From the NCBI GenBank assembly GCA_964355175.1, contig CAYHBZ010000002.1:396537-460536 (forward strand): 64,000 bases of DNA, given 5' to 3'. Below the pieces are notes generated by a model. The model made no database searches and was not told where the DNA came from. It saw only the letters and a list, made by a program, of their open reading frames with translations. A program made the translations under genes and the position numbers. Source of the stretch: an uncultured Gammaproteobacteria bacterium. GTDB taxonomy: Bacteria; Patescibacteriota; Patescibacteriia; Magasanikbacterales; GWA2-37-8. Positions 18,096 through 47,093 of the stretch are shown here, piece after piece. Positions within the stretch are counted from its first letter, which is position 1, and the number at the start of each line of letters is the position of its first letter.

Positions 18096-18125
18096 CAGTT
18101 ATTTTAGCGGGTATTTGCTTGCATA

Positions 18126-18154
18126 TTGACAGGCGCTGGTTTTTTTGATTTAAT
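18126..18154 (+). promoter_or_regulatory. sigma70-like promoter of cassette D
   Basis: TTGACA, 17-nt spacer, TTTAAT; same hexamers as cassette E promoter. Confidence 0.55.
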
Positions 18155-18306
18155 AATAAGTCGTTTGTTCTTTATTTGGCAGGATAATTTTGGATTAAAA
18201 TTTTTAATTCAGAGTTATCGTGCCAACTTTCTCAATGCGTGTCGGCGAAATGCGTCGATATGTAAAGAGAGGTGCGAGAGCCTACATGGTAGGCAGGAGA
18301 GCAGGA

Positions 18307-19122
18307 ATGGCAGACAGCAGCCACAACGTTACTCAGGTCGGCATCACCGTCGGGCCGCCCAACGCCGATCTCGGCAGTGTGGTGGTTCGTCAGGAGGCGG
18401 CCAGGGCGGATCTCAATGAGCGGCGTACGCATCTCAGCTTGGTTGTCAAGCCCTCGGTCGATGATCTGGTCGCGCGGCTGAATGTCGAGCGGCAGGAAGT
18501 CGACCGCATCGGCGCGCTGGTCGATGCGGTAGAGCGCGAACAGGCGAAGAGCGTCAAGCACTTCGAATCGACGCTCGGCGGGCAGGCGCGGCTCTGGAAG
18601 AAGGGTTTCGACGCCCATGAGCGCTCGATCTTCTGGGTCAAGCTCCTCGGCGTCGTCGGCCTGGTCCTGGTCGGTATCGTCCTGGTCCTGAACCTGTCGT
18701 CCTCCTCGGACATCTCCACGGCCAAGTCGGAAGCCATCTCGGCCAAGACCACCGTGGCGGAGTTCAAGAAGGCCACCCAAGGCGAGGTCGTCAAGATCAA
18801 GAAGAGGCTCGATGCCAACAAGCTCGACATGGATCAGCTCAAGGATCAGATCAAGGTCGTCGGGCTCAAGGCTGACAAGAGCGTCGTCACTCGCATGGGC
18901 GAAGAGCTCAAAGAAGCCAACATCGAGCAGGACGGTCGGATCCAGGACATCGCCACCGCGATCATGGGCAAGGCCGACATAGCCGATCTCAAGAGCGTGA
19001 GGAGCGCAGTCGCGCAGGTTCGCCGGGCCAACGGCAAGGTGAACACGAAGATGACCAGGCTCGAAGCTCAGGTCCTGGAGCTCAAGGCCCAACTCCAGGC
19101 CCAACAGCCCAAGACCATGTAG
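18307..19122 (+). CDS. GC-rich cassette D: bitopic membrane protein with extracytoplasmic coiled coil, no recognised family
   Basis: AGGAGA 6 nt before ATG 18307; TM WVKLLGVVGLVLVGIVLVLNL; heptad-like K/D/L-rich C-terminal half; GC3-biased frame. Confidence 0.65.
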   Translation: MADSSHNVTQVGITVGPPNADLGSVVVRQEAARADLNERRTHLSLVVKPSVDDLVARLNVERQEVDRIGALVDAVEREQAKSVKHFESTLGGQARLWKKGFDAHERSIFWVKLLGVVGLVLVGIVLVLNLSSSSDISTAKSEAISAKTTVAEFKKATQGEVVKIKKRLDANKLDMDQLKDQIKVVGLKADKSVVTRMGEELKEANIEQDGRIQDIATAIMGKADIADLKSVRSAVAQVRRANGKVNTKMTRLEAQVLELKAQLQAQQPKTM

Positions 19123-19185
19123 TCCGTTCCCGATCTGTTCGGGCACTTGTAGTTTAGCCTTGATTTCTGAAGGCAAAAGCTCGGT

Positions 19186-19300
19186 GAGGACGCAAAATCC
19201 CCCCAAGGGTGTGTCGTTTACTCGACACTACCTGCTTAGTTCGCAAAAAATTGTTTGCTGAGCAGAATAAAAAATCCGCTATTATGGTGGATTTTTTAAT
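19186..19300 (+). repeat. 3' repeat R1, copy 1 (three hairpins, the last a terminator)
   Basis: About 80% identical to 20118-20238; bulged hairpin GGTGTGTCG-TTTACT-CGACACTACC; ends AAAAAATCCGC...GGTGGATTTTTT. Confidence 0.6.
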
Positions 19301-19330
19301 CTAAAATATGCTGTTTTTAGGTCAGTAGTA

Positions 19331-19359
19331 TTGACAAAGTAGGATTTTTATGTTTTAAT
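19331..19359 (+). promoter_or_regulatory. sigma70-like promoter of cassette E
   Basis: TTGACA, 17-nt spacer, TTTAAT. Confidence 0.55.
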
Positions 19360-19504
19360 AGTTCATTAGATTGTTCTTTTTAATCAATTCGCGCGACAAT
19401 TATAAATTAAAATTTTTCAATTTATAATCGTCGTGCGAATTTCAGTTTATCAATGACGGCCAGTCGGAGGTTCCGATTGGTTCAGCTCTTTCTGCGAGGT
19501 GAGC

Positions 19505-20074
19505 ATGGTTGATTTCAATCCCCCGGATCCAGTGGATCCAGAGAAGAAAAAGAAGCCTTCGTCGGCTGTGGAGACAGACCACAATTGGGAAGCCTGGGCC
19601 AACGATAATTCGGTCGATGACGGCAGTCATCCTCTGCCTGGTGAAGCCGAATACGTCGGACGGTCCGACCTTCCCATGACACGGGCACAGAAAGAGCGCA
19701 TCGCCGCGATCGTAGTCGGTACGGCCTTCCTGGTGTTGGTTTTCTTTGTCATCAATTTCGCTATCGGCAACAAGCTCAAGCATTCTGAAGCGGCCTCGTC
19801 CAACGAGGCTGGCAAGCAGAGCGCTCAGGCAAGTGCCGAAGTAGAATTGAAGGCAGAAGAAGCCGCCTCAGAGCAGGATCATACGGTCTCGCTGCCGGAT
19901 CACGCTTCGCAGGAAGATGATCTGGACGATGCTCGCGCGACCATCAAGGTCGTCGGTTTGGAGAAACGGCGCGTTCGAGATCCAGAGATGGAGCGGATCG
20001 CCGCAACCATCAAGATCGTGCCACTGCGTGTCAGTCCTGTCGCGGTACCGCTTCCAGCGGCCGCTACTCAGTAG
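19505..20074 (+). CDS. GC-rich cassette E: bitopic membrane protein with acidic C-terminal region, no recognised family
   Basis: GAGGTG just before ATG 19505; TM IAAIVVGTAFLVLVFFVINFAIG preceded by RAQKER; GC3-biased frame. Confidence 0.6.
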   Translation: MVDFNPPDPVDPEKKKKPSSAVETDHNWEAWANDNSVDDGSHPLPGEAEYVGRSDLPMTRAQKERIAAIVVGTAFLVLVFFVINFAIGNKLKHSEAASSNEAGKQSAQASAEVELKAEEAASEQDHTVSLPDHASQEDDLDDARATIKVVGLEKRRVRDPEMERIAATIKIVPLRVSPVAVPLPAAATQ

Positions 20075-24128: not shown

Positions 24129-24830
24129 TTATTTCAACTCTTTCTTCAGGCTGGCCAAATCCGCATGCCAGCTATTACCATCAAACCACTCCAATCCAGC
24201 AAATTGCAATTTGTAAGTGTCAGTGGGGCGAGAAGCAGAGCCGAGATAAATATATTTTTTATCAGCTTCTTGCGCCAGGACTATAGCTTTGAGCATCATG
24301 CCTAGGCCTAAATTTTGGATTTTGGAATCCAAATGATAAAAAGGATAACAATAATGCAAAGTATTTTTGGTTTCCAGAGCAATACAATATCCAATAGGAT
24401 ATCCGTTGGCATGTTTATCGTCTGAATCTTTGAAAGCAATGTGTTTCAGTATCTTTATAGGAGCAAAATAATTCAGCACCCTGTTAAAATTACTTTTTTC
24501 TTTATCCGTAATCAATTCTTTTATTTTTTGAGCGGAAAAAGTTTTCTCACCAAATTTTCTGGAATAAAAATCTTTGCCAAGTTTGTGGATAGTCCAGTCG
24601 TAGTCAGGATAGGGAATAATACTAGCGCTTATTTCCACGCTCTCCACATGTTTGAGTACCCGGCGATTTTCACTATTCAGTTTAAATTTATCCAAATTAA
24701 TTCTCAAACTACGCGTCTGATACATATCACCCCTGCCAGTACGAGTAAACAAAAATCCCTCATCATAAAGAGTCTCAATATTTTTATCAGAAAAATCGTC
24801 AATGGTTTTTGTCTTCCAAGTCAGGTACAT
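24129..24830 (-). CDS. putative aminoacyl-tRNA-protein transferase (ATE/Bpt-like) / GNAT-fold protein
   Basis: ATG at 24830 chosen because 24841-24872 belongs to a palindromic repeat arm; motif recall is weak. Confidence 0.4.
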   Translation of the reverse strand: MYLTWKTKTIDDFSDKNIETLYDEGFLFTRTGRGDMYQTRSLRINLDKFKLNSENRRVLKHVESVEISASIIPYPDYDWTIHKLGKDFYSRKFGEKTFSAQKIKELITDKEKSNFNRVLNYFAPIKILKHIAFKDSDDKHANGYPIGYCIALETKNTLHYCYPFYHLDSKIQNLGLGMMLKAIVLAQEADKKYIYLGSASRPTDTYKLQFAGLEWFDGNSWHADLASLKKELK

Positions 24831-24840
24831 ATTTATCAGA

Positions 24841-25008
24841 ATTATTAGACGGTATTTTTTTACATTGAACAAGCGAGGAAATAATTTGTGAGCCGTGAGG
24901 CGTGGCTAGCCCTGCTGTTTGAGGAGCCGAGCGACGAGTTCAGGGCTAGAGCCGAGTGGGTTGCAAATTATCCGAGCGGTTCACTGTAAAAAAATACCGT
25001 CTAATAAT
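24841..25008. repeat. palindromic GC-cored intergenic element E1
   Basis: Perfect 24-bp terminal inverted repeat (24841-24864 / 24985-25008); ~100-nt core homologous to 35968-36066. Confidence 0.65.
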
Positions 25009-25028
25009 TCGCAACTATGTAACTGTAA

Positions 25029-26141
25029 CTAGTAAAACACCGCCCAAATCCCCACAACCACCATAAAAGCATGAATAATCCAAAACCGCATCACAATCTT
25101 TTCTTCACTCCACCCCTTAAATTCAAAATGATGGTGCAACGGCGCCATTTTAAACAAGCGTTTTCCCAGCAAGCGGCGTGACATTATTTGTAAAATGACA
25201 ACCGCGGTTTCCAAATAAAAAATAAAACCAAAAAATGGAATGAATAAAGTTTTATCAATCGCGATCATATTTATCGCCAGCAATGCGCCTAATCCGAGCG
25301 ACCCCACATCGCCCATCTGAAAGCGTGCCGGTTTGACATTGAAATAAGTGTAAGCTAAAAGTGCTCCTGCCACCGTGGCATTGAGCGGTGCAAAAGCGGT
25401 GCGGCCTTCAATCCAGCTCACTACGGTAAGACCAACAAAAGTAATAATCAAAGATCCGCCAGCCAAACCATCCAGACCGTCCGCGATATTCACGGCGTTG
25501 GCCGTAAACATTACAAAGAAAATAATCAAAGGAATAATCAGCCAACTGACATCGAGGCGACCATCAAATGGTACGGCCATGGTATGCCAATGATTGTCTA
25601 ATTTAGTGTATACCCACCACGCCGCCACCGCGCCGGCGGCAAATTGTAATAATAATTTTTCATGCACCTGGACACCGCGTCCCGGATGTGAACCGAGGAT
25701 ATGAGCGAATCTTTTAAATACCGCCCATGGCAAAGTGATGATATGCCATAATCTGGTATACCAATGACGATGGACCTTGATCAGGGTAAAAGTTTGAGAA
25801 AGGGTGCGAAGACGACGCTTGGCCCCAAAAGTATTGAGCAGATCATCGGCCGCGCCGAGCAATGCGGCGATACCCATCACGCCTATTGGTACATAGGTAT
25901 ATTTACGACTCCAATTGAAAAGCATGGTGATGGCGGTGACTACTATTATTACCAGCAGCCCGCCCATTATTGGTGTGCCTACTTTTACTTGTCGGTCGCC
26001 ATAGAGAGTGAAATCATATTCAGAGCGACGGGTAATTTTGAATTTATAAAGTAATTTGGTCAGCAAGGGTGCCAACAAAAAAGAGAGGGCGCAAGCCCCG
26101 ATAAAAAACAGTAAAGATGTTTCTAAAAGACTAATAGACAT
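25029..26141 (-). CDS. mraY: phospho-N-acetylmuramoyl-pentapeptide transferase
   Basis: NAVNIADGLDGLAGG and PLHHHFEFKGWSE motifs. Confidence 0.9.
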   Translation of the reverse strand: MSISLLETSLLFFIGACALSFLLAPLLTKLLYKFKITRRSEYDFTLYGDRQVKVGTPIMGGLLVIIVVTAITMLFNWSRKYTYVPIGVMGIAALLGAADDLLNTFGAKRRLRTLSQTFTLIKVHRHWYTRLWHIITLPWAVFKRFAHILGSHPGRGVQVHEKLLLQFAAGAVAAWWVYTKLDNHWHTMAVPFDGRLDVSWLIIPLIIFFVMFTANAVNIADGLDGLAGGSLIITFVGLTVVSWIEGRTAFAPLNATVAGALLAYTYFNVKPARFQMGDVGSLGLGALLAINMIAIDKTLFIPFFGFIFYLETAVVILQIMSRRLLGKRLFKMAPLHHHFEFKGWSEEKIVMRFWIIHAFMVVVGIWAVFY

Positions 26142-26190
26142 GGCTAAATATTAGCTTAAATTCAAGGAAAAATCAAGTTTTTGCGAAAAA

Positions 26191-27483
26191 CTAATCACTC
26201 CACTCCTTGGTTTGGCGCACCAATAATTTGGGAGCGTCGAGTGGTTCGGCCATCACTTCTTTGACAATTTTTTCCATGCGCATGCTCTGGGATCCTTTGA
26301 TGAGTACCACATCGCCTTGATTTAATTTTTCTTGAAGAAATTTTCCGGCCGTTTTGCTATCGGCAAAAGAGGCAATTTGATTATCATCCATTCCGGCTTC
26401 GCGCGCGGCGATAGCCGTATGTTTACTGGATTCGCCCACGGTAATCAGGAAATCTATTCCTAGTTCGGCAGTCTTTAAACCCACTTCACGATGAGTATTT
26501 TCCGTTTCTGATCCGAGTTCCAACATATCCGCCAACACCGTAATGCGTTTACCACCATCGTGGGGGGTGATTTTTGATAAAGTATAGAGCGCCGATTTTA
26601 CCGGCTCCGGACTGGAATTGTAGGTATCGTCGATGAGTAAAGTGTTTTTAATTCCATTGATAATGCACATGTGTCCAGGCAGTGGCTCTATTTTTCGAAG
26701 TGCGATAGCGGCTTCTACTACATTAATACCTAAGATATGTCCGACTGCTACCGCGGACAAAGCCGAAGGAATAAGGTGGACAGCGATTGCTCCCGGTAAA
26801 AACATCGGAACAATATTGCCGTCGTAATTTAGTTTGAAATTTAAGCCCGATGGCCAGCCGGTTTTTTCGTCGATAATAATATTGATATCAGTAGCCTGGA
26901 AAGTAGCACCATCTTTAAAACCAAAAGTGACCACTTCGGCTTTGGTGGTATTGCCATTTTGCATTACCATGTCATTGTCATAATTTAAAACCGCAAAACC
27001 ATCGCGTTGTAAATGTGAAATGATAATACGTTTTTCTTGAGCGATTTTTTTAATGGTTTTGAAAGTCTCGGTATGAGCGTGAGAAATATAAGTAAGCACA
27101 CCAATTTTACAAGGAGCAAGTTCGGTAAGGTAAGCAATATCTCCCGGTTTGTCAGCGCCCATTTCCAATACCAAAATTTCGGGATAATTTTTGTCGGTAA
27201 CGAGAAGCAGCTCAATGGCTTTTATTATCACCATTATCCAGCCGAACACTGAGCTATTTGGAGATTTTTCTACGCCAATAATTGCCAGCGGTATGCCAAT
27301 TTCGTTGTTGTAATTTTTAAAACTTTTGCGAACATTAAATTTGCTTTTCAAAACTAAATAGATTGCTTCCTTGGATGAAGATTTTCCAATCGAGCCGGTA
27401 ATGCCAATCACATCTGGATGATATTTCTGGATAATTTTTTTGGAGAGTGATCGTAGTATCAAATTTAAGAAATTTCTAAACAT
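26191..27483 (-). CDS. murF: UDP-MurNAc-tripeptide--D-Ala-D-Ala ligase
   Basis: Mur ligase P-loop GITGSIGKSS; position between PBP gene and mraY. Confidence 0.8.
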   Translation of the reverse strand: MFRNFLNLILRSLSKKIIQKYHPDVIGITGSIGKSSSKEAIYLVLKSKFNVRKSFKNYNNEIGIPLAIIGVEKSPNSSVFGWIMVIIKAIELLLVTDKNYPEILVLEMGADKPGDIAYLTELAPCKIGVLTYISHAHTETFKTIKKIAQEKRIIISHLQRDGFAVLNYDNDMVMQNGNTTKAEVVTFGFKDGATFQATDINIIIDEKTGWPSGLNFKLNYDGNIVPMFLPGAIAVHLIPSALSAVAVGHILGINVVEAAIALRKIEPLPGHMCIINGIKNTLLIDDTYNSSPEPVKSALYTLSKITPHDGGKRITVLADMLELGSETENTHREVGLKTAELGIDFLITVGESSKHTAIAAREAGMDDNQIASFADSKTAGKFLQEKLNQGDVVLIKGSQSMRMEKIVKEVMAEPLDAPKLLVRQTKEWSD

Positions 27484-27499
27484 ATTCTATAGGGTTATT

Positions 27500-29227
27500 T
27501 TATTTATCATTTGGTACCGCGTAGTATTGCAGAGCAAAAGTAAGTAGATCACGAAATATTGGTAGGGTAGTCTGCTCCGCCCACTGACGCTGGGGCTCTT
27601 CATATTTTACCACCAAAACAAATTGTGGGTTAGAGGCGGGTGCAAAACCAGCAAAGGTGTGGTTGGTGCGATCCACACTATATTTGCCCGCTTCGGCAAT
27701 TTGAGCGGTACCGGTTTTGCCGGCCACATAATAGCCAGGGATCTTGGCAGCGCGGTAATGGTTTTCCACCACTGATACTAGCATACCACTAACTAACTTG
27801 GCAGTGCGAGCCGAGATTACGGATTCGGAAGTCAAAGGGGAAGTGATTTCTTTTTTCCCATCGGGATAGTGCACTTCCGAAATGATATATGGTTTTGGCA
27901 TGAGGCCTTGGTTCGCTATAGCAGAATAAGCGGAAGCGAGTTGCAATGGAGTAGCGGTGAGACCCTGGCCAAATGATCCTACGGCGGCATAGATCTGACC
28001 TTTTTTGTCCAGCGAAGAAATATCCGCACCAGATTCAGGAGATAGTTCAATGCCGGTTTTTTGGCCAAAGCCAAATTTTTTAGCGTAATCAGACAAGCGT
28101 TCGTGACCAAGTTTATCGGCCACAAACATCATCCCGGTATTTACCGAGTTTTCCAAGACCTGAGTCATATTTATAGTGCCGTAACATTTATTTTGAGCGT
28201 TGCGAATTGGGAAGCCGCCATACACGCGCACGCACGGATCGGTAAAAGTGGTGTTGGGTGAAATCAGGCCGAGGTCTATGCCGGCCGACATAGTGATAGG
28301 TTTAAAAACCGATCCTGGTTCATAAGGAGTAAAAATAGCGGTGTTGTTGTACTGTCGAATATCTTTTACTTGTGAATAATCGTTCGGATTAAAATCCGGC
28401 AGACTGCACATCGCTAGGATAGCGCCGGTCTTTGGATTCATCATTACCAGTGACGCGCTTTTGGCTTGGTATTCTTCCAAACCTTTTTGTAATAGCAAAC
28501 AAGCTTTGTATTCTAGGCTACGGTCTATGGTTAGCACTATGTCCGCGCCGTCTTGAGCGTTCACTTGAGAATGGTCTGACATGGCTACCAAACTACCAAA
28601 AGCGCCGCGTTCACCAATGGCAAAACCTTTGCGTCCGGATAAAATTTTATTCCAATAACCTTCGGTGCCGTAGCTGCCGATTTGTTCGGTGCCGCTGTCG
28701 TCTAGTCGGCAAAAGCCCAAAATTGGACCGGCTAAATTTTGTTCGGGATAATAACGGTATTCCTGTTCGTTGGCATAAATTCCCGGTAATTTTTCCGTTT
28801 TTAATTTTTCGTAAGTATCACTATCAATTTTTTTGGCAACCGGTTCGTAGAGGTCGTTACTTTTGGATAATTTTTTATTTAAAATTTCTCGATCGGTTTC
28901 TGGCAAGTTTAATATTTTTATTAATTTGTCCACGGTCATGGCTATCTCTTCCGGTTTTATATTTTTGGGTATAGCATAAATTAGATAATATTGGCGATTG
29001 ATAGCCGCCGGGAAAAGAGTTTTGGTGCGAGTATCTTGGAAAAATATTTCTCCGCGTTTGGGGTGAAGTTGTTTGTAAATTTCATGGCTGTTTAGTGCCA
29101 GAGTGTGATAATAATTATATTGTACTATTTGCAACAAAAATAATTTGATAATTATTATCAAAGCTACCGCTAAAAAGAAAACAGCGATAAAACGTAAACG
29201 GTTATCAGTTTTTTCTTTGTGCGTCAT
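27500..29227 (-). CDS. class B penicillin-binding protein (FtsI/PBP2-type transpeptidase)
   Basis: N-terminal TM; SVFKP (SxxK), SVN (SxN) and KTGT motifs. Confidence 0.85.
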   Translation of the reverse strand: MTHKEKTDNRLRFIAVFFLAVALIIIIKLFLLQIVQYNYYHTLALNSHEIYKQLHPKRGEIFFQDTRTKTLFPAAINRQYYLIYAIPKNIKPEEIAMTVDKLIKILNLPETDREILNKKLSKSNDLYEPVAKKIDSDTYEKLKTEKLPGIYANEQEYRYYPEQNLAGPILGFCRLDDSGTEQIGSYGTEGYWNKILSGRKGFAIGERGAFGSLVAMSDHSQVNAQDGADIVLTIDRSLEYKACLLLQKGLEEYQAKSASLVMMNPKTGAILAMCSLPDFNPNDYSQVKDIRQYNNTAIFTPYEPGSVFKPITMSAGIDLGLISPNTTFTDPCVRVYGGFPIRNAQNKCYGTINMTQVLENSVNTGMMFVADKLGHERLSDYAKKFGFGQKTGIELSPESGADISSLDKKGQIYAAVGSFGQGLTATPLQLASAYSAIANQGLMPKPYIISEVHYPDGKKEITSPLTSESVISARTAKLVSGMLVSVVENHYRAAKIPGYYVAGKTGTAQIAEAGKYSVDRTNHTFAGFAPASNPQFVLVVKYEEPQRQWAEQTTLPIFRDLLTFALQYYAVPNDK

Positions 29228-29228
29228 G

Positions 29229-30233
29229 TTAACTGATATTTTTTAGGAAATCTTTTAAGACCAGTTCTGGCTTTGCTCCGTTCCAAACAATTTCATGGAC
29301 AACTTTGGCTAGCGGCATGGTGACGCGGTATTTTTTGGCCAAAGCCAAAACGGTTTTGCAAGTTTCGACACCCTCTACGGTTTGGCCGATAGCTTTGGCA
29401 GCTTGTTCTTTGTTTAAATATTTTGGCAAACAGGCGCCAAAGCGACGGTTGCGGGAATGCTCGGACATCGCGGTGCCGATGAGATCGCCGAGTCCGGCCA
29501 AATCATAGACGGTTTTTTCGTGTCCGCCCATTTTTTTCACCAAGGTGGAAATTTCTTTGAGGGCGGAAACAAAAATTGCGGCCTTGGTATTCATCGGATA
29601 GTCATAACAGTCGCACAATCCGATAGCGATAGCATAAACATTTTTGAGAGAGCCGGCTACTTCGGTGCCAACCAAATCATCACTTTTTATCAGACGCAAA
29701 TTATCATTTTCCAAAACTTTTTTGGTGAGCGCGACGGCGGATTTGGCGCCGGCAATATTCATGGCGGTAAAATAATTTTTTACCATGTCGGTCGCTACGG
29801 CCGGACCGGAAATTACCACAATATTATTTCGCAGGTTGGATGGTAAATTGCGAGATATTATTTTGGAGACAGTGGATAGACTCATGCTGTCGAGCCCTTT
29901 GGAAGCATTAACGCAGACAGTTTTTTTGGAAAGATAAGGGGAAATTTTTTTTGTCACCTCGCCAATAAATCCACTCGGCACGGCTAAAAATATTATGTCA
30001 GTTTTGGAAACAGCAGTGAATAATTCTTTTTCTACTTTGATGTTTTTGGATAATTTTATTCCCGGTAAATATTTTTTATTTTCACCAGTTTGGCTGATCT
30101 GATTTAGTGGTTCTACATCACCTTCGTAGTTCCATAGTCTTGCTACGAAGCCATTGTTGGCAATTATATTTGCCAAAGCGGTGCCCATGTTGCCGGCACC
30201 GAGCACAGTGACTGAAATATTTTTTGTTGCCAT
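29229..30233 (-). CDS. gpsA: NAD(P)H-dependent glycerol-3-phosphate dehydrogenase
   Basis: VTVLGAGNMGTALA dinucleotide fold and overall GpsA-like sequence. Confidence 0.85.
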   Translation of the reverse strand: MATKNISVTVLGAGNMGTALANIIANNGFVARLWNYEGDVEPLNQISQTGENKKYLPGIKLSKNIKVEKELFTAVSKTDIIFLAVPSGFIGEVTKKISPYLSKKTVCVNASKGLDSMSLSTVSKIISRNLPSNLRNNIVVISGPAVATDMVKNYFTAMNIAGAKSAVALTKKVLENDNLRLIKSDDLVGTEVAGSLKNVYAIAIGLCDCYDYPMNTKAAIFVSALKEISTLVKKMGGHEKTVYDLAGLGDLIGTAMSEHSRNRRFGACLPKYLNKEQAAKAIGQTVEGVETCKTVLALAKKYRVTMPLAKVVHEIVWNGAKPELVLKDFLKNIS

Positions 30234-30242
30234 ATTAGATTT

Positions 30243-31292
30243 TTAAACTTTATCTTTATTGGCCAACTGTCCGCAGGCGGCGGCGATATCCAGACCTTGT
30301 GAACGACGCACGGTGCAGACAATATCTTTGTCGTTCATTTTTTGTTGCCAATGTTTGATGGTTTCCATCGGAGTGGTACCAAAAAAATCATTACTGCTAG
30401 CCGGATTGTAAGGGATCAGGTTCACGCGTACGGAGCCCATTTTGTGAACTAGTTTTATGAGAGCGTCGAGATTTTTTGGAAAATCGTTGACGCCACCAAG
30501 CATGATATATTCAATGCCGATAAAATGCGTGCGACTAGGAAAGGCTTTGTGATAACGGCGCGCCCAGTCTACCAAAAATTCCAAAAAGTCACTGCGGTTG
30601 GAAGGCATGATGGAAGTACGGTTTTCGTTGATGGCGCTGTGGAGTGACAAAGCAAAACGGACCGGTGGCCAATTTTTATCATCTACCATTTTGTCCATCG
30701 TAGTGGCCAAGCCGACGGTGGATACTGTAATTTTGCGTGGACCCATTTTGGCGGCCTTGATCAAAATATTAATAGCCTGTTTTACATTGTTATAATTTAA
30801 GAGTGGCTCACCTTGGCCCATAAAAACAATGTTATCTACTTCACCTTCGTTATTTTTCCATAGTATTTGTTGCCAGTAGCGCATCTGATCCACAATTTCG
30901 CGATAAGTAAGATTGCGCGCAAAACCCATTTTACCGGTAGCACAAAAAGTACAGGCCATCGGACAGCCAACTTGAGACGATACACAAATAGTATAGCGCG
31001 GACGATCCCCAGGAATCATTTTTTTGCTCACACGCGGCATCAGCACACTCTCGATTACTTTGCCGTCACTAAATTCTAGCAAGGCTTTGCGAGTGCCGTC
31101 GATTTTGCTCTGCAATAATACTTTTTCTTTTACTGTCACCCAAGGAATGTCCTTGAGCTTGGCGCGTAGATCTTTGGATAGGGTAGTGATCTCTTCAAAC
31201 GAATTTATTTTTTTATCAAACCAGGATAAATAAATTTGTTGGCGGCGAAAGGCCGGTTCGTCTTTGAGGATTTCTTCTAAATTATCGTTCAT
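30243..31292 (-). CDS. rlmN: 23S rRNA/tRNA adenine-C2 methyltransferase (radical SAM)
   Basis: CPMACTFCATG cluster motif and RlmN-like N-terminal domain. Confidence 0.85.
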   Translation of the reverse strand: MNDNLEEILKDEPAFRRQQIYLSWFDKKINSFEEITTLSKDLRAKLKDIPWVTVKEKVLLQSKIDGTRKALLEFSDGKVIESVLMPRVSKKMIPGDRPRYTICVSSQVGCPMACTFCATGKMGFARNLTYREIVDQMRYWQQILWKNNEGEVDNIVFMGQGEPLLNYNNVKQAINILIKAAKMGPRKITVSTVGLATTMDKMVDDKNWPPVRFALSLHSAINENRTSIMPSNRSDFLEFLVDWARRYHKAFPSRTHFIGIEYIMLGGVNDFPKNLDALIKLVHKMGSVRVNLIPYNPASSNDFFGTTPMETIKHWQQKMNDKDIVCTVRRSQGLDIAAACGQLANKDKV

Positions 31293-33793
31293 ATTTTTTT
31301 AGGTCTTAAGGCCAATCCGGTCAAGATCATAGCGGATATGGAAATGGTGATTAAAGCTAAGAATTGATTTTGATTTATTTTTACAAGGTGAAATATTTCT
31401 CTGAGCTGTGGTATCGACATTATGAGCGTGAGAGCTATGATTGTTAGTACCCAAATGCTCATCAACAGGAAATTATGTTTTATTTGTTCCCATTCGCGGG
31501 TGACCATTATTAGTGTGACCTGGGTGATGGTGAGCGAGGCAAAAGTAAAGGTGCGGGCCATATCAGTATCATGTCTATAAAGGGCGTGGTAGCAGTAAAA
31601 ACTAGCCGCCACGGCCGTGATAGCCAATCCTTGAATAATAACTTTTTTAAATAGTTTGGGATTTATTAGCGGTTCTTTAATTGGTCGGGGTTTTTCGGTC
31701 ATGAGGCCTTTGCGGGCTCGATCGCGTTCAAATCCTATTACGGAAGCGGGGTCGCAGAATAATTCCAGGAATACTACATTGATAGGGAAGAAGACCAATG
31801 GTTCGCCCAGGATCAGAGGAAATATAGCCATAGCCACTATCGGAATATGAAAAGAAAATAAAAAGACAAAAGCTTGGCGCAGATTATCATAGATGCGACG
31901 TCCTTCTTGTATGGCACTGACGATAGTATTGAAATTATCATCAAGTAAAACTATGCCGGCAGCGGCCCGAGCCACTTCGGTGCCTTTTTCGCCCATAGCG
32001 ATACCGATGTTGGCTTTTTTTAGAGCAGGGGCATCGTTCACTCCATCGCCGGTCATGGCTACAATTTCACCTTGTTTTTGCAGAGCTTCCACAATTTGAT
32101 ATTTTTGTTCCGGTTTGACACGAGAAAAAATATCGTGGTTTCGGACAATTTCGTCGAATTGATCGGCGGAAATATTTTCCAATTCATGGCCGATAATTAT
32201 TTTTTCGTTGTGTTTTAGTCCAATAGACACGGCGATATTTTTGGCGGTCAGATGATTATCACCGGTAATCATGATTACACGGATGCCGGCTTTTTGACAG
32301 ATGTCGATAGCTTCCTTCACATTAGCGCGCGGCGGATCGCTCATCGCTAGCAAGGCCACAAATTCCAGATCATATTTTTCAATTTGTTTTTTGTCTCCCA
32401 GATTTTTTTGGGCAATCGCGATTACGCGGTAGCCTTGTTCAGCCAAAGCTTCGTATTTTTTTTGGATTTCATCTTTTTCGATGACGGATAAATTTGATTT
32501 GGCAATAATAGATTCGGGAGCGCCGGCACTATATTGAACTGAAATTTTTTCAGGATTTTGAAATAGGTGATGAAGAGTCTTGGTGGTGGATTCAAAGGGG
32601 TGGGTCTCGAGATGAGCGTGTTCGTTGAAATGGTTGGTGGTATCAATGCCGAGACTGGTGGCAAATCTCTGCACTTCTACTTCCATCGGATCGGCGGCGA
32701 TGCGTTCGAGCGACAATAGAGTTATTTTCATTAATTCCTTTAGATCTTCTCTGTTGGTCGCAAAATCTTTTTTACTATAGTTTTTATTTTGATAAAAAAT
32801 TTCTTCCAAAGACATTTTGCCTTCAGTGAGCGTGCCGGTCTTGTCGGTGCAAATTACGGTAGCCGATCCCAAAGTTTCTACCATCGCCATTTCGCGCACC
32901 AAAGCTTTTTGTTTGGTCATGCGCCATACGCCCATGATGAGAAATACACTGAACACAATCGGAAATTCTTCCGGTATCAGAGCCATAGCCAAAGTGACCG
33001 AGCCGAGTAGTCCATTTACCAAAGAAGTTTTTAAAGCAATTAAAATACCGACCAAAAAAGAGGTGCTGATGGCGATGATAGCCACGCTCTTTATTAGTCG
33101 GCGAATATTTTTTTGTAGAGGAGTGTCCAAGCGTTCGATATTTTCCAATAAATTTCCCAGTTTGCCATAGGCAGTATGGGCGGCCGTGTCGGTGACCAAC
33201 AGGTAACCTTCGCCTTGAGCGATTAAAGTTCCTTGAAAAAGTTTATTTTCTTCGGTTATTTTTTGCAGGTCTTGGGTGGAATTTTTGGAAACTACTATCG
33301 ATTCACCGGTTAGCATTGATTCGTCTACCAATAAACCGACCGAATCTAGCAAAACACCGTCCGCCGGAGCTTTGTCGCCGGCATTTAGATACACCAGATC
33401 ACCCGGTACTAAATTTTTTATTTCAGTTTTTTGGATTTTTTCATCGCGAAATACGCGGCAAAAATCTACTACAATTTTATCCAATGCTTCGATGGCTTTG
33501 TCCGTGCGTCTTTCTTGAATAAATTCAATAATTAAAATTGGAACAATTGAAACCAGCAATATGATGGTATCCACATGGTCGCCCAAAAAAAGATAGGCCA
33601 AAGCGGCTATAAACAATAACAAGATCATCGGCTCGGAAATTATCTTGGCCAGACGCTTGAAACTACTTTGTTTTTTCTTGGCGGGACGCAAATTCAGACC
33701 GTATTTTGCCAAGGCAATTTTATATTGCTCAGAAGACAGGCCTTTGTATTTTGTTTTTAACGCTAAAACTGCTTCCAAAATTTCGGTATTCAT
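31289..33793 (-). CDS. cation-transporting P-type ATPase (type II-like)
   Basis: DKTGTLT, MITGDN and GDGVNDAPAL motifs; 834 aa. Confidence 0.9.
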   Translation of the reverse strand: MNTEILEAVLALKTKYKGLSSEQYKIALAKYGLNLRPAKKKQSSFKRLAKIISEPMILLLFIAALAYLFLGDHVDTIILLVSIVPILIIEFIQERRTDKAIEALDKIVVDFCRVFRDEKIQKTEIKNLVPGDLVYLNAGDKAPADGVLLDSVGLLVDESMLTGESIVVSKNSTQDLQKITEENKLFQGTLIAQGEGYLLVTDTAAHTAYGKLGNLLENIERLDTPLQKNIRRLIKSVAIIAISTSFLVGILIALKTSLVNGLLGSVTLAMALIPEEFPIVFSVFLIMGVWRMTKQKALVREMAMVETLGSATVICTDKTGTLTEGKMSLEEIFYQNKNYSKKDFATNREDLKELMKITLLSLERIAADPMEVEVQRFATSLGIDTTNHFNEHAHLETHPFESTTKTLHHLFQNPEKISVQYSAGAPESIIAKSNLSVIEKDEIQKKYEALAEQGYRVIAIAQKNLGDKKQIEKYDLEFVALLAMSDPPRANVKEAIDICQKAGIRVIMITGDNHLTAKNIAVSIGLKHNEKIIIGHELENISADQFDEIVRNHDIFSRVKPEQKYQIVEALQKQGEIVAMTGDGVNDAPALKKANIGIAMGEKGTEVARAAAGIVLLDDNFNTIVSAIQEGRRIYDNLRQAFVFLFSFHIPIVAMAIFPLILGEPLVFFPINVVFLELFCDPASVIGFERDRARKGLMTEKPRPIKEPLINPKLFKKVIIQGLAITAVAASFYCYHALYRHDTDMARTFTFASLTITQVTLIMVTREWEQIKHNFLLMSIWVLTIIALTLIMSIPQLREIFHLVKINQNQFLALITISISAMILTGLALRPKKI

Positions 33794-34000
33794 ATCGGAT
33801 ATTCTATCAGAAATAAGGGTATTTTACAAGGAATAAAAAATACCCTACCAAAGGTAAAGTATTTTTATAATAATGCCTATTTTACCGAGATCTCCTGTTA
33901 AATTTTTACCAATATATTTGATAAAGATTTAGCATTGGGAGATCTTGGTGGACCGCGACCTCCCAACGCCAGACTTGCGTCGGTCTGTCGGTAGGCGAGT

Positions 34001-34354
34001 CTACCAGGCGCCCATGGGCTGAGACGTAGGCTTGGCGACTTCCAGTTCCTGGGCCGTGGCCAGACGCGCTCCGGCACAGGTGCCCAGCACCCACTGGATC
34101 ACGAGCAGGTCACCGACCTTGGTCTCCTTGGGGACGAACAACGGGAAGCCGCTGCGGTCCTCGTCGGCTCCGCGCTTGTGTTCGTTCTCTGCGAAGTAGC
34201 GATGGCCGCTCTTGTCGCTACGTCCGAGCACGTAGAAGATCGGAGTCTCCGGATGCTGGTCGGCGTTGTTGCTGTCGCGACGGATGAGTTTGCCTTGGGG
34301 TACAAAGATACCGACACCGGTTTCGAGCCGGAAGACACCGTGAAAGATAAGCAT
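34001..34354 (-). CDS. GC-rich cassette F: 117-aa soluble protein, no recognised family
   Basis: AAGGA 6 nt before ATG; GC3-biased frame on minus strand; own promoter and leader hairpin. Confidence 0.6.
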   Translation of the reverse strand: MLIFHGVFRLETGVGIFVPQGKLIRRDSNNADQHPETPIFYVLGRSDKSGHRYFAENEHKRGADEDRSGFPLFVPKETKVGDLLVIQWVLGTCAGARLATAQELEVAKPTSQPMGAW

Positions 34355-34401
34355 TGATTGTCCTTGAGTTGCATCAACCGAAACGCTCGGCTGATATGAT
34401 G

Positions 34402-34430
34402 TATATACACTGATTTTAGCAAAAAGTCAA
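34402..34430 (-). promoter_or_regulatory. sigma70-like promoter of cassette F
   Basis: Minus strand TTGACT (34430-34425), 17-nt spacer, TATATA (34407-34402). Confidence 0.5.
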
Positions 34431-34502
34431 TGGTAAATTGGTTTTTTGAGATAATAAAATAAAAAATCCCCTATTTTATTAGGAGATTTTAGTTTTAATT
34501 TT

Positions 34503-35906
34503 TTAAGAAAAATATTTTTTTTCCAGCGATTTTATTTTTTCACTCAGTTGGTCTATGGAAAGTGGTGGATTAATCTGAGATTTTTCTAGTAACTCGATTA
34601 TTGTTTTTAGCAGTTGTTTGGCGCCGGGTATAATATGATTATTACGATCTTCCGCGTATGATAAGCGCAGATAGCCACTTCCGCCACTGCCAAAATCGCT
34701 GCCTGGTATGGCCGCAAAGCCTTTTTCTTGTAGTAGCCAGCGGCTGAAATCTTTATCATTTTTTATTTTTAGATCTTCAGCCACATATTTTAATTTCAAA
34801 ATGTTTTCAATATTTGGAAACAAATAAAAAGCGCCCTCGGCTTGATTTGGTAAGATAAAAGGGGAGAGCAGTGAGAGAGATTCGAATAAAAATTTACCTT
34901 TTTTCTCGTACTCGGCAAAATCGGTTTGTAAAATTGGTTCAATTTTTTCGCGTACCGATGGATAGTGGCATCCGTCCAAATCGACATCGCCAAAAATCGT
35001 GCCCGCCACAATCTGGTTGGCGCGACTGACACAACTCCATTTATTTACTGCGAGTTGTCCGAAAATTTCTATGAGCCACTCGGGTGCTATCACAAATCCC
35101 ACACGCCAGCCGGTCATCGCATAATTTTTGGAACAACCATTGAGATTGATAGTAAAATCAAGCATGCCCGGCACCGATAAAATGCTAAAATGCTTGCGAC
35201 CGTCAAAAGTAATTTGATCGTAAATGTCATCAAACACCACCATGAAGCGATATTTTTTGGCCAGTTCGGCCACAGCGCGCAATTTTTCTTCGCCCATCAT
35301 CATGCCGGTCGGATTTTGCGGCGTGTTGAGAAAAAGTAATTTTATATTTTTATTTTCCAATAAGATTTTTTCCAAATCCGATACATTAAAATCCAAAGTT
35401 TTATCATCCGGATTTTGTCGGGCTGTCCATTCCAAAGGTTTTTTGCGCGTATAAAAATTAGAGAGCGAAGCGTAGATAGGATACGAAGGATTTTGGACAA
35501 TAATTTGATCATCTTTATTCACCAAAGCTTGCAAAGATAATTCAATTGCCGGTTTGCCGCCCGGTTCAAGCAAAATATTTTCTTTTTTAATTTCCACCCC
35601 ACGCGTAGTCGTCCAAAATCGCGCAATGTTTTCGCGCACCTGCGGATACCCCAAGAAATGCCCATATTTGGTCTGCTTATCTCGAAGAGCCTGAATCGCC
35701 ACCTCAATAATCGGTTCCGGAGTCTTTGGACCAGTATCCCCAATATGAAATTTATAAACAGTCAAAAACTTTTTCGAAGCCTCCACTTTCGCCACCTCCA
35801 CCCCAAAAGCAAACGAAGATTCATCCCCCAAAAAATTCAAATCACGATTATAATCCACCTTCGGAGACATTTCATCATTATTCAAAAATTTCGCAGACAA
35901 TTTCAT
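34503..35906 (-). CDS. class I/II aminotransferase
   Basis: NTPQNPTG and SKNYAMTGWRVG (PLP Lys) motifs; ATG at 35906. Confidence 0.8.
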   Translation of the reverse strand: MKLSAKFLNNDEMSPKVDYNRDLNFLGDESSFAFGVEVAKVEASKKFLTVYKFHIGDTGPKTPEPIIEVAIQALRDKQTKYGHFLGYPQVRENIARFWTTTRGVEIKKENILLEPGGKPAIELSLQALVNKDDQIIVQNPSYPIYASLSNFYTRKKPLEWTARQNPDDKTLDFNVSDLEKILLENKNIKLLFLNTPQNPTGMMMGEEKLRAVAELAKKYRFMVVFDDIYDQITFDGRKHFSILSVPGMLDFTINLNGCSKNYAMTGWRVGFVIAPEWLIEIFGQLAVNKWSCVSRANQIVAGTIFGDVDLDGCHYPSVREKIEPILQTDFAEYEKKGKFLFESLSLLSPFILPNQAEGAFYLFPNIENILKLKYVAEDLKIKNDKDFSRWLLQEKGFAAIPGSDFGSGGSGYLRLSYAEDRNNHIIPGAKQLLKTIIELLEKSQINPPLSIDQLSEKIKSLEKKYFS

Positions 35907-35927
35907 ATCCAATTTAAAGTATAAAGA

Positions 35928-36104
35928 AAATAAATATTTCCCCTGAACGAGCCGCTGAAAATCCGAGCAAATAATTTGTGAGCCGACGAGGCGTCTCTGG
36001 CCGTGCTGTTTGAGGAGCCGCGCGACGAGTTCACGGCCAGAGTCTCGACGGGTTGCAAATTATGCGAAGATTTTCACAGGCGAGAGAAGGGGAAATATTT
36101 ATTT
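35928..36104. repeat. palindromic GC-cored intergenic element E2
   Basis: 16-bp perfect outer inverted repeat (35928-35943 / 36089-36104); core homologous to E1 with paired substitutions. Confidence 0.65.
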
Positions 36105-47062: not shown

Positions 47063-47093
47063 AAGAATCCCGACTAGTCGGGATTCTTTTTTT
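47063..47093 (+). terminator. intrinsic terminator after HU gene
   Basis: AAGAATCCCGACTAGTCGGGATTCTTTTTTT. Confidence 0.7.

What the first reader, a model, noticed from the sequence alone, without database searches (positions are those of the whole stretch)
24841..36104. E1/E2: homologous ~170-nt palindromic intergenic elements with a GC-rich core and compensatory stem substitutions
E1 (24841-25008) lies between mraY and the next minus-strand gene. E2 (35928-36104) lies between tkt and the aminotransferase gene. They share a ~100-nt core, AAATAATTTGTGAGCCG..GGCGT...GCTGTTTGAGGAGCCGnGCGACGAGTTCA...GGGTTGCAAATTAT. The inner stem reads CTAGCCCTG/CAGGGCTAG in E1 and CTGGCCGTG/CACGGCCAG in E2, with paired changes that keep complementarity. 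The ~26-nt apical segment CTGTTTGAGGAGCCG(A/C)GCGACGAGTT is nearly invariant. The outer arms are AT-rich perfect inverted repeats with different sequences (24 bp in E1, 16 bp in E2) and resemble bidirectional terminators. A conserved loop, covarying stem and high GC in an AT-rich genome are the signature used to find structured ncRNAs. A MITE-like mobile palindrome is the alternative.
Basis: seen in the sequence. Interest (0 to 1): 0.6.

Follow-up and report, generated by a model that had tools for sequence, protein, structure and literature searches.

The report
Strand-specific long hairpin insertions, conserved cap
E1 and E2 are two copies of a non-coding ~170-base hairpin element that was inserted between housekeeping genes of a Candidatus Magasanikbacteria genome, and its conserved cap also tops long hairpins in many unrelated bacterial and prophage sequences, a family absent from Rfam and from the papers I could search.

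Summary
E1 (24841-25008) and E2 (35928-36104) are homologous 168- and 177-nt imperfect hairpins with one nearly invariant apex, and they are the only two copies in the window.

They are not conserved genes. Relatives with MraY 81-97% identical have 1-5 nt (one has 49 nt) where E1 sits. Relatives at 82-87% have 1-2 nt where E2 sits. Both are therefore lineage-specific insertions, with no visible target duplication and with outer arms that differ between copies.

The "loop" can be drawn as a small helix of tandem G·A pairs, G-C pairs and a triloop. A shorter version, TGTTTGAGCGNAGCGAGTT, has 96 exact hits in viral contigs. There it usually caps 126-191-nt hairpins with unrelated stems. Covariation is 0.595 against 0.211 in shuffles (0/500).

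The motif strand folds better in all 24 long hairpins measured. Orientation relative to flanking genes is mixed. There is no Rfam match, no terminator tail and no conserved reading frame.

Best reading (about 0.45): a dispersed, horizontally spreading hairpin element that acts as single-stranded DNA. It resembles REP elements and the Ssn-related (NTS) hairpins present in the same genome, but it fails the published motif definition. A structured RNA remains a serious rival (about 0.3).

The parts
24841..25008 (+). E1, whole hairpin (168 nt). The + strand is the motif strand.
   Evidence: MFE is -80.6 (+) against -64.6 (-) kcal/mol, z -10.95.
24841..24864 (+). E1 outer 5' arm. It forms 24 perfect bp with 24985-25008 and is unrelated to the E2 arms.
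   Evidence: Its partner arm shares the 13-mer AAAAAAATACCGT with an arm of the other palindrome, P3.
24985..25008 (+). E1 outer 3' arm.
24863..24985 (+). E1 core, homologous to the E2 and L005 copies. It includes tandem G·A internal loops (GCGAGG opposite CCGAGC).
24915..24940 (+). E1 apex, C-TGTTTGAG-GAGCCGAGCGA-CGAGTT. It can be drawn as GA-G-GA-GC-[CGA]-GC-GA-C-GA.
   Evidence: The drawing is my inference from the sequence.
24832..24840 (.). 9 nt of extra non-palindromic DNA between E1 and the ATG of the 233-aa gene. Absent from the empty sites.
25009..25028 (.). About 19-20 nt of extra non-palindromic DNA between the mraY stop codon and E1. Absent from the empty sites.
35928..36104 (+). 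E2, whole hairpin (177 nt). The outermost 6 nt overlap the last Lys codon and stop codon of the transketolase-like gene.
   Evidence: MFE is -86.3 (+) against -75.0 (-) kcal/mol.
35928..35944 (+). E2 outer 5' arm, 17 bp with 36088-36104. It is shared in part with the L005 copy, where a 5-bp block is exchanged on both sides (CCCCT/AGGGG against TAATC/GATTA).
36088..36104 (+). E2 outer 3' arm.
35955..36077 (+). E2 core, homologous to E1.
36006..36031 (+). E2 apex, C-TGTTTGAG-GAGCCGCGCGA-CGAGTT.
35913..35927 (.). Extra non-palindromic DNA between E2 and the aminotransferase start. Absent from the empty sites of relatives.

Best explanation
E1 and E2 are copies of a non-coding, non-autonomous hairpin element family that spreads into intergenic spacers. 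The family is defined by a long imperfect hairpin of about 110-195 nt. Its stem sequence is free to vary. Its tip carries a conserved, asymmetric cap, Y-TGTTTGAG-(GA/GC mini-helix with a triloop)-CGAGTT.

**Shown.**
- Both copies are lineage-specific insertions between a stop codon and the next start codon.
- The fold is selected on one strand only.
- The cap is conserved across unrelated stems and taxa.

**Inferred.** The element works when its motif strand is single-stranded DNA, for example on the lagging-strand template or on DNA entering by transformation or conjugation. The hairpin then presents the cap to a hairpin-specific single-strand enzyme. That enzyme nicks or recombines it, which copies the element or controls incoming DNA. 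REP/RAYT elements and the NTS/SRM hairpins cut by the small GIY-YIG Ssn nucleases work this way.

A candidate partner exists. This lineage carries several small GIY-YIG genes. One of them, in a relative, is an inserted cassette flanked by short hairpins whose cap has the same GA-GC-GNA-GC-GA build.

As a side effect, transcripts through E1 and E2 contain a long hairpin between genes that abut in relatives. This may alter processing or coupling, which is speculative.
For: **Insertion.**
- At the E1 site, L015 (MraY 97% identical) reads TAA-T-ATG. L016-L018 (87%) have 3 nt, L022 (81%) has 5 nt and L019-L021 (82%) have 49 nt. The window has 197 nt.
- At the E2 site, L019 reads TAA-T-ATG and L017 reads TAA-TT-ATG. 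The window has about 190 nt.
- Neither nhmmer nor the covariance model finds a copy in about 100 kb of syntenic DNA from relatives.

**Dispersal.**
- Other copies lie at unrelated housekeeping junctions: map|ruvX in another Magasanikbacteria genome (L005), fmt|GT2 (L007), and NUDIX|ABC2 and prfA|sua5.
- A further copy, E4, lies about 300 bp upstream of the window in the same genome, between divergent genes.

**Strand-specific fold.**
- The motif strand is more stable in 24 of 24 long hairpins, by 11.8 kcal/mol on average.
- G·T pairs outnumber A·C 68 to 32. Purine·purine mismatches outnumber pyrimidine·pyrimidine 165 to 99.

**Conserved cap, free stems.**
- TGTTTGAGCGNAGCGAGTT has 96 exact hits in viral contigs.
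- Over 35 distinct contexts the adjacent 10-bp stem is 66.6% paired against 41.3% in shuffles (0/500). Covariation is 0.595 against 0.211 (0/500), and slid controls give 0.14-0.28.

**DNA-type cap.**
- All four bases occur at N of GCGNAGC. That is the definition of the stable DNA mini-hairpin (PMC13037366).
- The E1 cap core matches 15 of 17 bases of the cap of GTCATT-GCGAGGAGCGAAGCGACGAAGC-AATC hairpins, which have 34 exact hits, nearly all framed by GTCATT and AATC.
- GTCAT-type hairpins with GA-GC-GNA-GC-GA caps occur about 8 times in 83 kb of this genome.
- In relative L022 they flank an inserted GIY-YIG gene as perfect 28-bp inverted repeats.
- L022 also carries canonical NTS-like TGTCATTCCCGCGAAAGCGGGAATCTAT.
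- Ssn nucleases bind such hairpins only as ssDNA and only on one strand (PMC11893778).

**Position and orientation.**
- Orientation relative to flanking genes is mixed, and E4 lies between divergent genes.
- All three copies in this 83-kb stretch are on the G-rich (+) strand.
Against: - No enzyme is linked to the E-type cap. E1, E2 and E4 fail the published SRM search pattern. They have TGTTT where SRMs have the GTCAT tag that SsnA needs.
- No GIY-YIG ORF lies in the 820 kb around the viral copies, nor next to E1, E2 or E4.
- The E1/E2 triloops (CGA, CGC) are not GNA, so the DNA mini-hairpin argument applies fully only to the E4 type.
- G·U pairs, tandem G·A pairs and purine-rich internal loops are equally typical of structured RNA.
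- In P2-family prophages the element is in sense orientation inside the late operon. A subset of copies is followed by a pseudoknot-like module. Both fit RNA.
- Copy number is low: the exact E1-type cap occurs once among 185,579 species genomes and once in JGI metagenomes.
- No target duplication or clean insertion boundary is visible, so the insertion mechanism is unknown.
- The same-strand orientation of three copies is not significant on its own (p = 0.25).
Confidence: 0.45

Rival explanations
1. A structured non-coding RNA, or a cis-acting RNA element. The motif-strand transcript folds into the long hairpin, and its GA-rich cap binds a protein or RNA. When co-transcribed it acts as a processing or stability element inside operons.
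For: - Covariation with a conserved cap across unrelated stems.
- Strand asymmetry with G·U pairs and tandem G·A pairs.
- Sense orientation within the P2-type late operon, between the small terminase and head-completion genes, and at the P0121 and P0122 loci.
- An H-type pseudoknot-like module directly 3' of the hairpin in 5 or more distinct contexts.
- High GC in an AT-rich genome.
Against: - E1, E2 and L005 are antisense to their operons, as are L072, L078 and L091.
- E4 lies between divergent genes, upstream of what looks like the promoter of the + gene.
- No promoter-like site precedes either core on the motif strand, and there is no terminator.
- There is no Rfam match at E<=10 or at the viral copies.
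- The sites are empty in close relatives, so it is not a housekeeping RNA.
- The triloop cap GCGNAGC, with any N, is the DNA mini-hairpin motif rather than the GNRA or UNCG tetraloops usual in RNA (my knowledge plus PMC13037366).
Confidence: 0.3
2. A classical MITE: a deletion derivative of an insertion sequence, moved as double-stranded DNA by a transposase that recognises its terminal inverted repeats.
For: Palindromic, non-coding and intergenic, with presence/absence polymorphism between relatives. E2 and the L005 copy share arm ends.
Against: - The outer arms of E1 and E2 are unrelated, while the asymmetric centre is conserved. This is the opposite of a MITE.
- Subfamilies share only the cap.
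- No target-site duplication is visible at either filled site.
- The inserts carry extra non-palindromic DNA.
- The fold is strand-biased, which dsDNA transposition does not explain.
- No transposase turned up among the window and locus ORFs I screened or in the precomputed Pfam calls for L012, L023 and L025. Most window ORFs were not screened.
Confidence: 0.08
3. An ssoA/palA-like single-strand replication origin, left behind by or belonging to an integrated rolling-circle replicon.
For: - It is a long, orientation-specific imperfect palindrome of about 170 nt with a conserved apex, like palA.
- pT181 carries TAGCGAGTT, and CS-6 is TAGCG(T/A). The L061-type apex reads GCGTAGCGAGTT.
- The E 3' arm reads TTATCCGAGAA, close to RS_B TTATGCCGAGAA.
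- Mini-hairpins occur at ssDNA priming sites (PMC13037366).
Against: - The covariance model gives no hit on pT181 or pE194.
- The conserved ssoA 3' partner AAGGAAATTGGAATAAA is absent, and RS_B lies on the wrong side of the apex.
- The elements sit between chromosomal housekeeping genes, with several copies per genome and no Rep gene nearby.
- Some lie in P2- and Mu-like structural modules.
Confidence: 0.07
4. Bidirectional intrinsic transcription terminators, or operon punctuation that arose in place.
For: Intergenic position, strong hairpins and AT-rich outer arms.
Against: - No terminator-like site is found at either element.
- In E1 the T-run is 5' and the A-run 3' of the inner hairpin.
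- The same cap occurs on unrelated hairpins in many taxa.
- Relatives have the same gene pairs abutting, with 1-5 nt between them.
Confidence: 0.05

Closest known systems
Ssn-related motifs (SRM; Neisseria NTS/dRS3) and the GIY-YIG single-strand nucleases Ssn (Chenal et al. 2025, PMC11893778)
   Same: - Both are directional hairpin repeats in intergenic DNA with a conserved asymmetric sequence.
- Recognition of SRMs is on one strand only, and as ssDNA.
- In this genome the GTCAT-type hairpins carry a GA-GC-GNA-GC-GA cap, identical to the E4 cap.
- The E1 cap core matches 15 of 17 bases of the widespread GTCATT...AATC hairpin cap.
- A GIY-YIG gene flanked by such hairpins is inserted in relative L022.
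   Different: - E1, E2 and E4 do not match the published SRM pattern.
- They have TGTTT in place of the GTCAT tag and lack the ATTCC/GGAAT basal stem.
- They are 110-195 nt long rather than 20-50 nt, and their copy number is low.
- No ssn gene is seen flanked by the E-type cap.
- The L022 GIY-YIG protein is most similar to UPF0213 structures. Its membership of cd10448 was not tested.
REP/BIME elements with RAYT (Y1 HUH) transposases
   Same: - Short hairpins with GCGNAGC-like tips; enterobacterial and Coxiella REPs contain GCGAAGC-type centres.
- They are strand-specific ssDNA substrates, intergenic, and their partner gene is flanked by the repeats.
   Different: No GTAG or CGTC tag, a much longer stem, a single asymmetric cap rather than alternating REP pairs, and no RAYT gene seen in the DNA available.
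Long palindromic intergenic repeats such as ERIC (127 bp) and Neisseria Correia elements
   Same: Imperfect palindromes of 100-170 bp, inserted in transcribed intergenic spacers of housekeeping operons. They are present or absent between relatives and form long RNA hairpins when transcribed (my knowledge).
   Different: Those families conserve the whole sequence including the ends, and Correia elements make TA duplications. Here only the cap is conserved, the stems are free, the fold is strand-biased, and no duplication is seen. Sequence similarity to them was not tested.
ssoA/palA single-strand origins of rolling-circle plasmids
   Same: An orientation-specific palindrome of about 130-200 nt with a conserved apical sequence. 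TAGCGAGTT is shared with pT181. They function as folded ssDNA.
   Different: A different conserved stem (RS_B and its partner), no covariance-model match, and a chromosomal, multi-copy context that is not plasmid-borne.
DNA mini-hairpins d(GCGNAGC) (Hirao; PMC13037366)
   Same: The E4-type cap contains GCGNAGC with all four N observed. E4 carries it three times on the same strand.
   Different: That is a structural motif, not an element family. The E1/E2 triloops are CGA and CGC, not GNA.

Membership tests
Any Rfam family | Covariance-model match. | tested here: not met
   Only two tRNAs reach gathering threshold in the window. There are 0 hits at E<=10 on 24800-25050. No hit lies at the hairpins of 14 viral loci.
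SRM / NTS (Ssn-related motif) | Matches the degenerate search sequence HGTCWYN(0-2)YYVSBRHN(0-5)WNVSBRGN(0-2)RNCYNB. | tested here: not met
   0 hits in E1, E2, E4, L005c and L007c. The same pattern finds 3 canonical sites in relative L022.
SRM / NTS (Ssn-related motif) | A 20-50-nt hairpin with a conserved 5' GTCAT tag that gives it orientation. | tested here: not met
   The cap is preceded by Y-TGTTT, and the element is 168-177 nt.
SRM / NTS (Ssn-related motif) | Directional: only one strand forms the recognised structure. | tested here: met
   The motif strand is more stable in 24 of 24 hairpins. G·T outnumbers A·C 68:32, and R·R outnumbers Y·Y 165:99.
SRM / NTS (Ssn-related motif) | Spatial association with an ssn (single-domain GIY-YIG) gene, often flanked on both sides. 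| tested here: inconclusive
   Small GIY-YIG genes exist in this genome (L023 6090-6353, L025 14211-14459) and in relative L022, where one is flanked by GTCAT-type hairpins. None is next to an E-type element, and none lies in 820 kb around the viral copies.
SRM / NTS (Ssn-related motif) | Bound and cut by Ssn as ssDNA, but not as dsDNA or RNA. | not testable with these tools
   Needs a nuclease assay.
REP / BIME | A GTAG or CGTC 5' tag on a 20-40-nt palindrome, high copy number, and a RAYT gene flanked by REPs. | tested here: not met
   There is no such tag. There are 3 copies in 83 kb. No Y1 or HUH gene was seen in the annotated neighbourhoods.
MITE | Terminal inverted repeats conserved among copies. 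| tested here: not met
   The E1 and E2 outer arms are unrelated, and subfamilies share only the cap.
MITE | Target-site duplication flanking the insert. | tested here: not met
   Filled and empty sites show no direct repeat, and extra non-palindromic DNA of 9-26 nt accompanies the hairpins.
ssoA / palA single-strand origin | RS_B (TTTATGCCGAGAAAA) 5' of a CS-6 (TAGCGT/A) apex, on a rolling-circle replicon. | tested here: not met
   Only partial word matches were found (TTATCCGAGAA in the 3' arm; GAGCGA or AAGCGA in the apex). The model gives no hit on pT181 or pE194, and the context is chromosomal.
Intrinsic (bidirectional) terminator | A GC-rich stem directly followed by a T-run on the transcribed strand. 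| tested here: not met
   and the sequence.
Integron attC | R''/R' core sites (RYYYAAC ... GTTRRRY) at the base of the hairpin, between promoterless cassettes. | tested here: not met
   By inspection, there are no such sites at the bases. The neighbours are core housekeeping genes.
Small protein-coding gene | A reading frame conserved between copies. | tested here: not met
   The LFEEP[SR]DEF frame is shared only across the cap. Judged by hand translation of the sequences, an indel shifts the frame upstream and downstream between E1 and E2.

The most novel reading that the evidence does not exclude
The TGTTTGAG...CGAGTT-capped long hairpin is an undescribed, widely distributed class of strand-specific nucleic-acid element. 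It occurs from CPR bacteria to P2- and Mu-like prophages. It has its own dedicated partner, either a single-strand DNA enzyme or an RNA-binding factor, and its own way of colonising tight intergenic junctions. In that case it would be a new sister system to REP/RAYT and SRM/Ssn, or a new large ncRNA class, rather than a variant of either.
Probability: 0.35. Interest if true: 0.75.

Novelty: new variant of a known kind. Interest (0 to 1): 0.6.

Why it matters
- **A marker for a wider family.** A 19-25-nt cap identifies long hairpins with strong covariation in genomes with GC from 0.31 to 0.65. The family has no Rfam entry, and the motif is absent from the papers I could search.
- **A direct experiment.** If the cap is a handle for a single-strand DNA enzyme, it extends the recently discovered Ssn/SRM and REP/RAYT logic to a new hairpin type and to the reduced genomes of CPR bacteria. 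It would also supply new enzyme and site pairs for ssDNA tools. Mixing the small GIY-YIG proteins of this genome with motif-strand oligonucleotides would test this.
- **If it is RNA.** It would be a new widespread structured RNA found in phage late operons.
- **For annotation.** The elements split gene pairs that abut, and are probably translationally coupled, in relatives. Two contigs of this strain also end at or beside them (L013 inside E2, L024 just after E4).

Tried and rejected
- **Small peptide.** Rejected. The translation was still useful as a probe: it retrieved called ORFs over further copies (P0121, P0122, P0124).
- **Rfam.** Scans at gathering and at E<=10 found nothing.
- **BLAST of E2.** Only chance-level matches against phage and plasmid collections.
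- **BLAST of the P2-type hairpin region.** No match against plasmids or phages.
- **E1-type cap in viral contigs.** No hit with either a fixed or a free triloop.
- **Promoter and terminator scans.** Nothing that would make E1 or E2 a transcription unit or a terminator.
- **Further copies.** nhmmer, fuzzy motif and covariance-model searches of relatives' syntenic DNA found none.
- **ssoA hypothesis.** Only partial word similarity.
- **Ssn-like ORFs near viral copies.** None found.
- **Literature.** Searches for the literal motifs gave nothing relevant.
- **DNA for P0121 and P0122.** Not retrievable.
- The shorter and far more common cap could therefore only be searched in viral contigs.

Full report
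**Observation.** E1 (24841-25008) and E2 (35928-36104) are present as described. They align over a core of about 120 nt. The apical 26 nt, CTGTTTGAGGAGCCG[A/C]GCGACGAGTT, differ at one base, and that pattern occurs twice in the window against 0.00 expected. Each folds into one long imperfect hairpin: -80.6 and -86.3 kcal/mol, z -10.95 and -9.26. The neighbours are MraY and a 233-aa gene for E1, and a transketolase-like gene and an aminotransferase for E2, all on the minus strand. MraY homologs place the genome in Candidatus Magasanikbacteria, a CPR lineage. The source is a 463,850-bp contig, and E1 is present in three independent assemblies. A covariance model run over the whole window with filters off finds only E1 and E2 (48.4 and 44.7 bits; next hit 16.9).

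**They are insertions, not conserved genes.** Where the window has 197 nt between the mraY stop and the next start codon, a relative with 97% identical MraY (L015) reads TAA-T-ATG. Relatives at 87% and 81% have 3 and 5 nt. One at 82% has 49 nt containing a small hairpin of its own. At the E2 site, relatives at 82% and 87% read TAA-T-ATG and TAA-TT-ATG. The inserts are not clean. E1 comes with 9 and about 19 extra non-palindromic nt, and E2 with about 15-26. No direct repeat flanks either insert. The outermost AAATAA of E2 is the pre-existing last codon and stop codon of the upstream gene. About 100 kb of syntenic DNA from relatives contains no copy.

**More copies, and what is conserved.**
- The exact E1-type cap occurs once among 185,579 species genomes. 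That copy (L005) is in another Magasanikbacteria genome, between map and ruvX. It is homologous to E2 over its full length, with a 5-bp block of the outer arm exchanged on both sides.
- It occurs once in JGI metagenomes (L007). That copy has the same 25-nt cap on an unrelated stem, between convergent genes.
- Translating the cap frame and searching protein databases recovered ORFs called over three more L007-type copies. Two lie between co-directional housekeeping genes in sense orientation. One has a different cap centre, so only TGTTTGAG...GAGTT is retained.
- Extending the source genome by 10 kb on each side revealed E4, about 300 bp upstream of the window between divergent genes. It is a hairpin of about 190 nt (-116.7 kcal/mol) with GC-rich arms and the shorter cap CTGTTTGAGCGAAGCGAGTT.

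**The "loop" is a mini-helix (inference from sequence).** GAGGAGC-CGN-GCGACGA can be drawn as two tandem G·A/A·G steps, three G-C pairs and a triloop. The only base that differs between E1 and E2 is the third triloop base. The E4 type, GA-GC-GNA-GC-GA, is the same design one step shorter. Its centre, GCGNAGC, is the stable DNA mini-hairpin motif (PMC13037366). The internal loops of the long stems are again CGAG opposite CGAG, or GCGAAGC opposite GCGAAGC. On the motif strand these are purine·purine contacts, and on the other strand pyrimidine·pyrimidine.

**A wide family.** TGTTTGAGCGNAGCGAGTT has 96 exact hits in viral contigs with GC from 0.31 to 0.65, and all four bases occur at N. In 19 of the viral contexts measured it caps a hairpin of 126-191 nt with unrelated stem sequence. 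Using all 35 distinct contexts, without selecting for pairing:
- the 10 bp next to the cap are 66.6% paired, against 41.3% in shuffles (0/500);
- covariation is 0.595 against 0.211 (0/500);
- slid controls give 0.14-0.28;
- every pair changes on both sides.

About a third of contexts have no stem. These include a large prophage group in which the motif precedes ATCTATA iterons.

In 24 long hairpins the motif strand is the more stable in all 24, by 11.8 kcal/mol on average. G·T outnumbers A·C 68:32, and R·R outnumbers Y·Y 165:99. Part of the energy difference comes from the shared cap itself.

In P2-family prophages the element lies between the small-terminase and head-completion genes, in sense orientation. 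Elsewhere it lies beside Mu-portal or large-terminase genes in either orientation. None of these sites matches Rfam, and the literal motifs are absent from the searchable literature.

**Link to known single-strand DNA hairpins.**
- The 83 kb of this genome hold about eight short hairpins of the form GTCATYCC-[GA GC GNA GC GA]-GGRATC.
- In relative L022 a 96-aa GIY-YIG gene is inserted between murD and the NUDIX gene, which are adjacent in the window. It is flanked by perfect 28-bp inverted repeats of this type.
- L022 also has canonical TGTCATTCCCGCGAAAGCGGGAATCTAT, which matches the published pattern for Ssn-related motifs.
- These motifs are the targets of Ssn, small GIY-YIG nucleases that bind and cut only one strand and only as ssDNA (PMC11893778).
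- The E1 cap core is 15/17 identical to the cap of GTCATT-GCGAGGAGCGAAGCGACGAAGC-AATC hairpins. I recalled that sequence from memory and then verified it: 34 exact hits, nearly all with that frame.
- E1, E2 and E4 nevertheless fail the SRM pattern and lack the GTCAT tag. No GIY-YIG gene adjoins any E-type copy. The relation is a resemblance of the cap, not membership.

**Other comparisons.** Staphylococcal palA/ssoA origins (pT181, pE194) share the general design and the words TAGCGAGTT and CCGAGAA. They do not share the conserved stem, and the model does not hit them. There is no terminator tail and no promoter in front of the cores. The reading frame is not conserved.

**Interpretation.** Shown: E1 and E2 are lineage-specific insertions of a dispersed element whose fold is selected on one strand and whose cap is conserved far beyond this lineage. 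Inferred: it most likely acts as single-stranded DNA. The arguments are:
- the DNA-type cap shared with ssDNA-specific hairpins of the same genome;
- mixed orientation relative to transcription, including a copy between divergent genes;
- mobility;
- all three local copies lying on the G-rich strand, which is weak with n = 3.

I give this about 0.45. A structured RNA remains a serious rival at about 0.3. G·U and G·A pairs fit it equally well, the P2 copies are in sense orientation, and some copies carry a pseudoknot-like 3' module. A classical MITE, an ssoA remnant and a terminator are each unlikely.

**Limits.** Only 83 kb of the genome were available. The broad cap could be searched only in viral contigs. 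No expression or biochemical data exist. The mini-helix drawing is not an energy calculation.

Noticed in passing
window 51121-51339; L025 14446-14630 (about 3.3 kb beyond the window end): A second family of long palindromes, P3 and P3b. P3 has 61-nt arms that are 95% complementary, MFE -114 kcal/mol and z -16. Both copies have two small GC-rich apical hairpins showing compensatory change, different outer arms, opposite orientations and no strand bias. The P3b arm overlaps the stop codon of an 82-aa GIY-YIG ORF. A P3 arm shares AAAAAAATACCGT with an outer arm of E1.
   Followed up: partly
window 12329-12355(-), 13805-13830(+), 14848-14902 (two abutting, inverted), 50539-50565(+), 56084-56110(+); also about 2.1 and 2.9 kb upstream of the window: Short REP-like hairpins, GTCATYCC-[GA GC GNA GC GA]-GGRATCTTAAA. 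They are near-matches to Ssn-related (NTS-like) motifs but fail the strict published pattern. The copy at 50539 lies inside a 417-aa ORF, and the copy at 56084 overlaps the 3' end of lgt.
   Followed up: partly
L022 13171-13580: A GIY-YIG gene cassette inserted between murD and NUDIX in a relative. It is flanked by perfect 28-bp hairpin-containing inverted repeats and by a 17-nt direct repeat, ATAATTTGTATAAATTA. That repeat shares ATAATTTG/CAAATTAT with the inner stem of E1 and E2.
   Followed up: partly
L023 5150-6420 (about 3-4.2 kb upstream of the window): An 87-aa GIY-YIG ORF sits between tRNA-Asp and tRNA-Asp-like fragments whose anticodon arm is replaced by TCCCGACTTAGTCGGGA. The same mini-hairpin is found in the P3b apex and at window 47069-47084. 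This looks like the att-type remains of an integrated element.
   Followed up: no
window 8000-12200, 18000-20000, 56300-58750: GC-rich islands (0.50-0.62) in a genome of about 40% GC. They carry long overlapping ORFs on both strands, and most have no Pfam match. One 473-aa ORF has Dictyostelium-type Cys-rich repeats (PF00526).
   Followed up: partly
L019 11117-11165: At the empty E1 site, one relative has a 49-nt spacer holding its own 10-bp hairpin (TTTTGATAGT/ACTATCAAAA). This junction seems prone to acquiring palindromes.
   Followed up: no
L078, L091, L112, L127, L147 (about 50 nt 3' of the cap); P2-type loci L061, L071: Directly after the long hairpin many viral copies have a second module, CTTGAW - T-rich - WTCAAG - A-rich. 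It can form an H-type pseudoknot. The P2-type copies have a TTCTTTCTTG-CACAAG-CAAGAAAGAA hairpin instead. E1 and E2 lack it.
   Followed up: partly
L065-type loci (about 40 viral contigs); L075-type loci: The same 19-nt motif occurs without a stem in two prophage groups. In one it is followed by ATCTATA iterons, which look like a replication origin. In the other it is preceded by GCGCCAG.
   Followed up: no
L157 (Acinetobacter baumannii plasmid NZ_CP040261) 1515-1665: A non-coding plasmid region with four GAGCG(N)AGCGA-type mini-hairpin words on one strand. About 300 Acinetobacter and 750 Klebsiella plasmid records gave short matches to the cap query.
   Followed up: no
L013 position 1; L024 position 1: Two independent contigs of this strain end at or beside these palindromes. 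L013 ends inside E2, and L024 starts just after E4. Such palindromes probably break short-read assemblies.
   Followed up: no
L096 3881-3947(-): A type II hammerhead ribozyme (71.9 bits) lies on one of the viral contigs carrying the hairpin, about 9.6 kb away from it.
   Followed up: no
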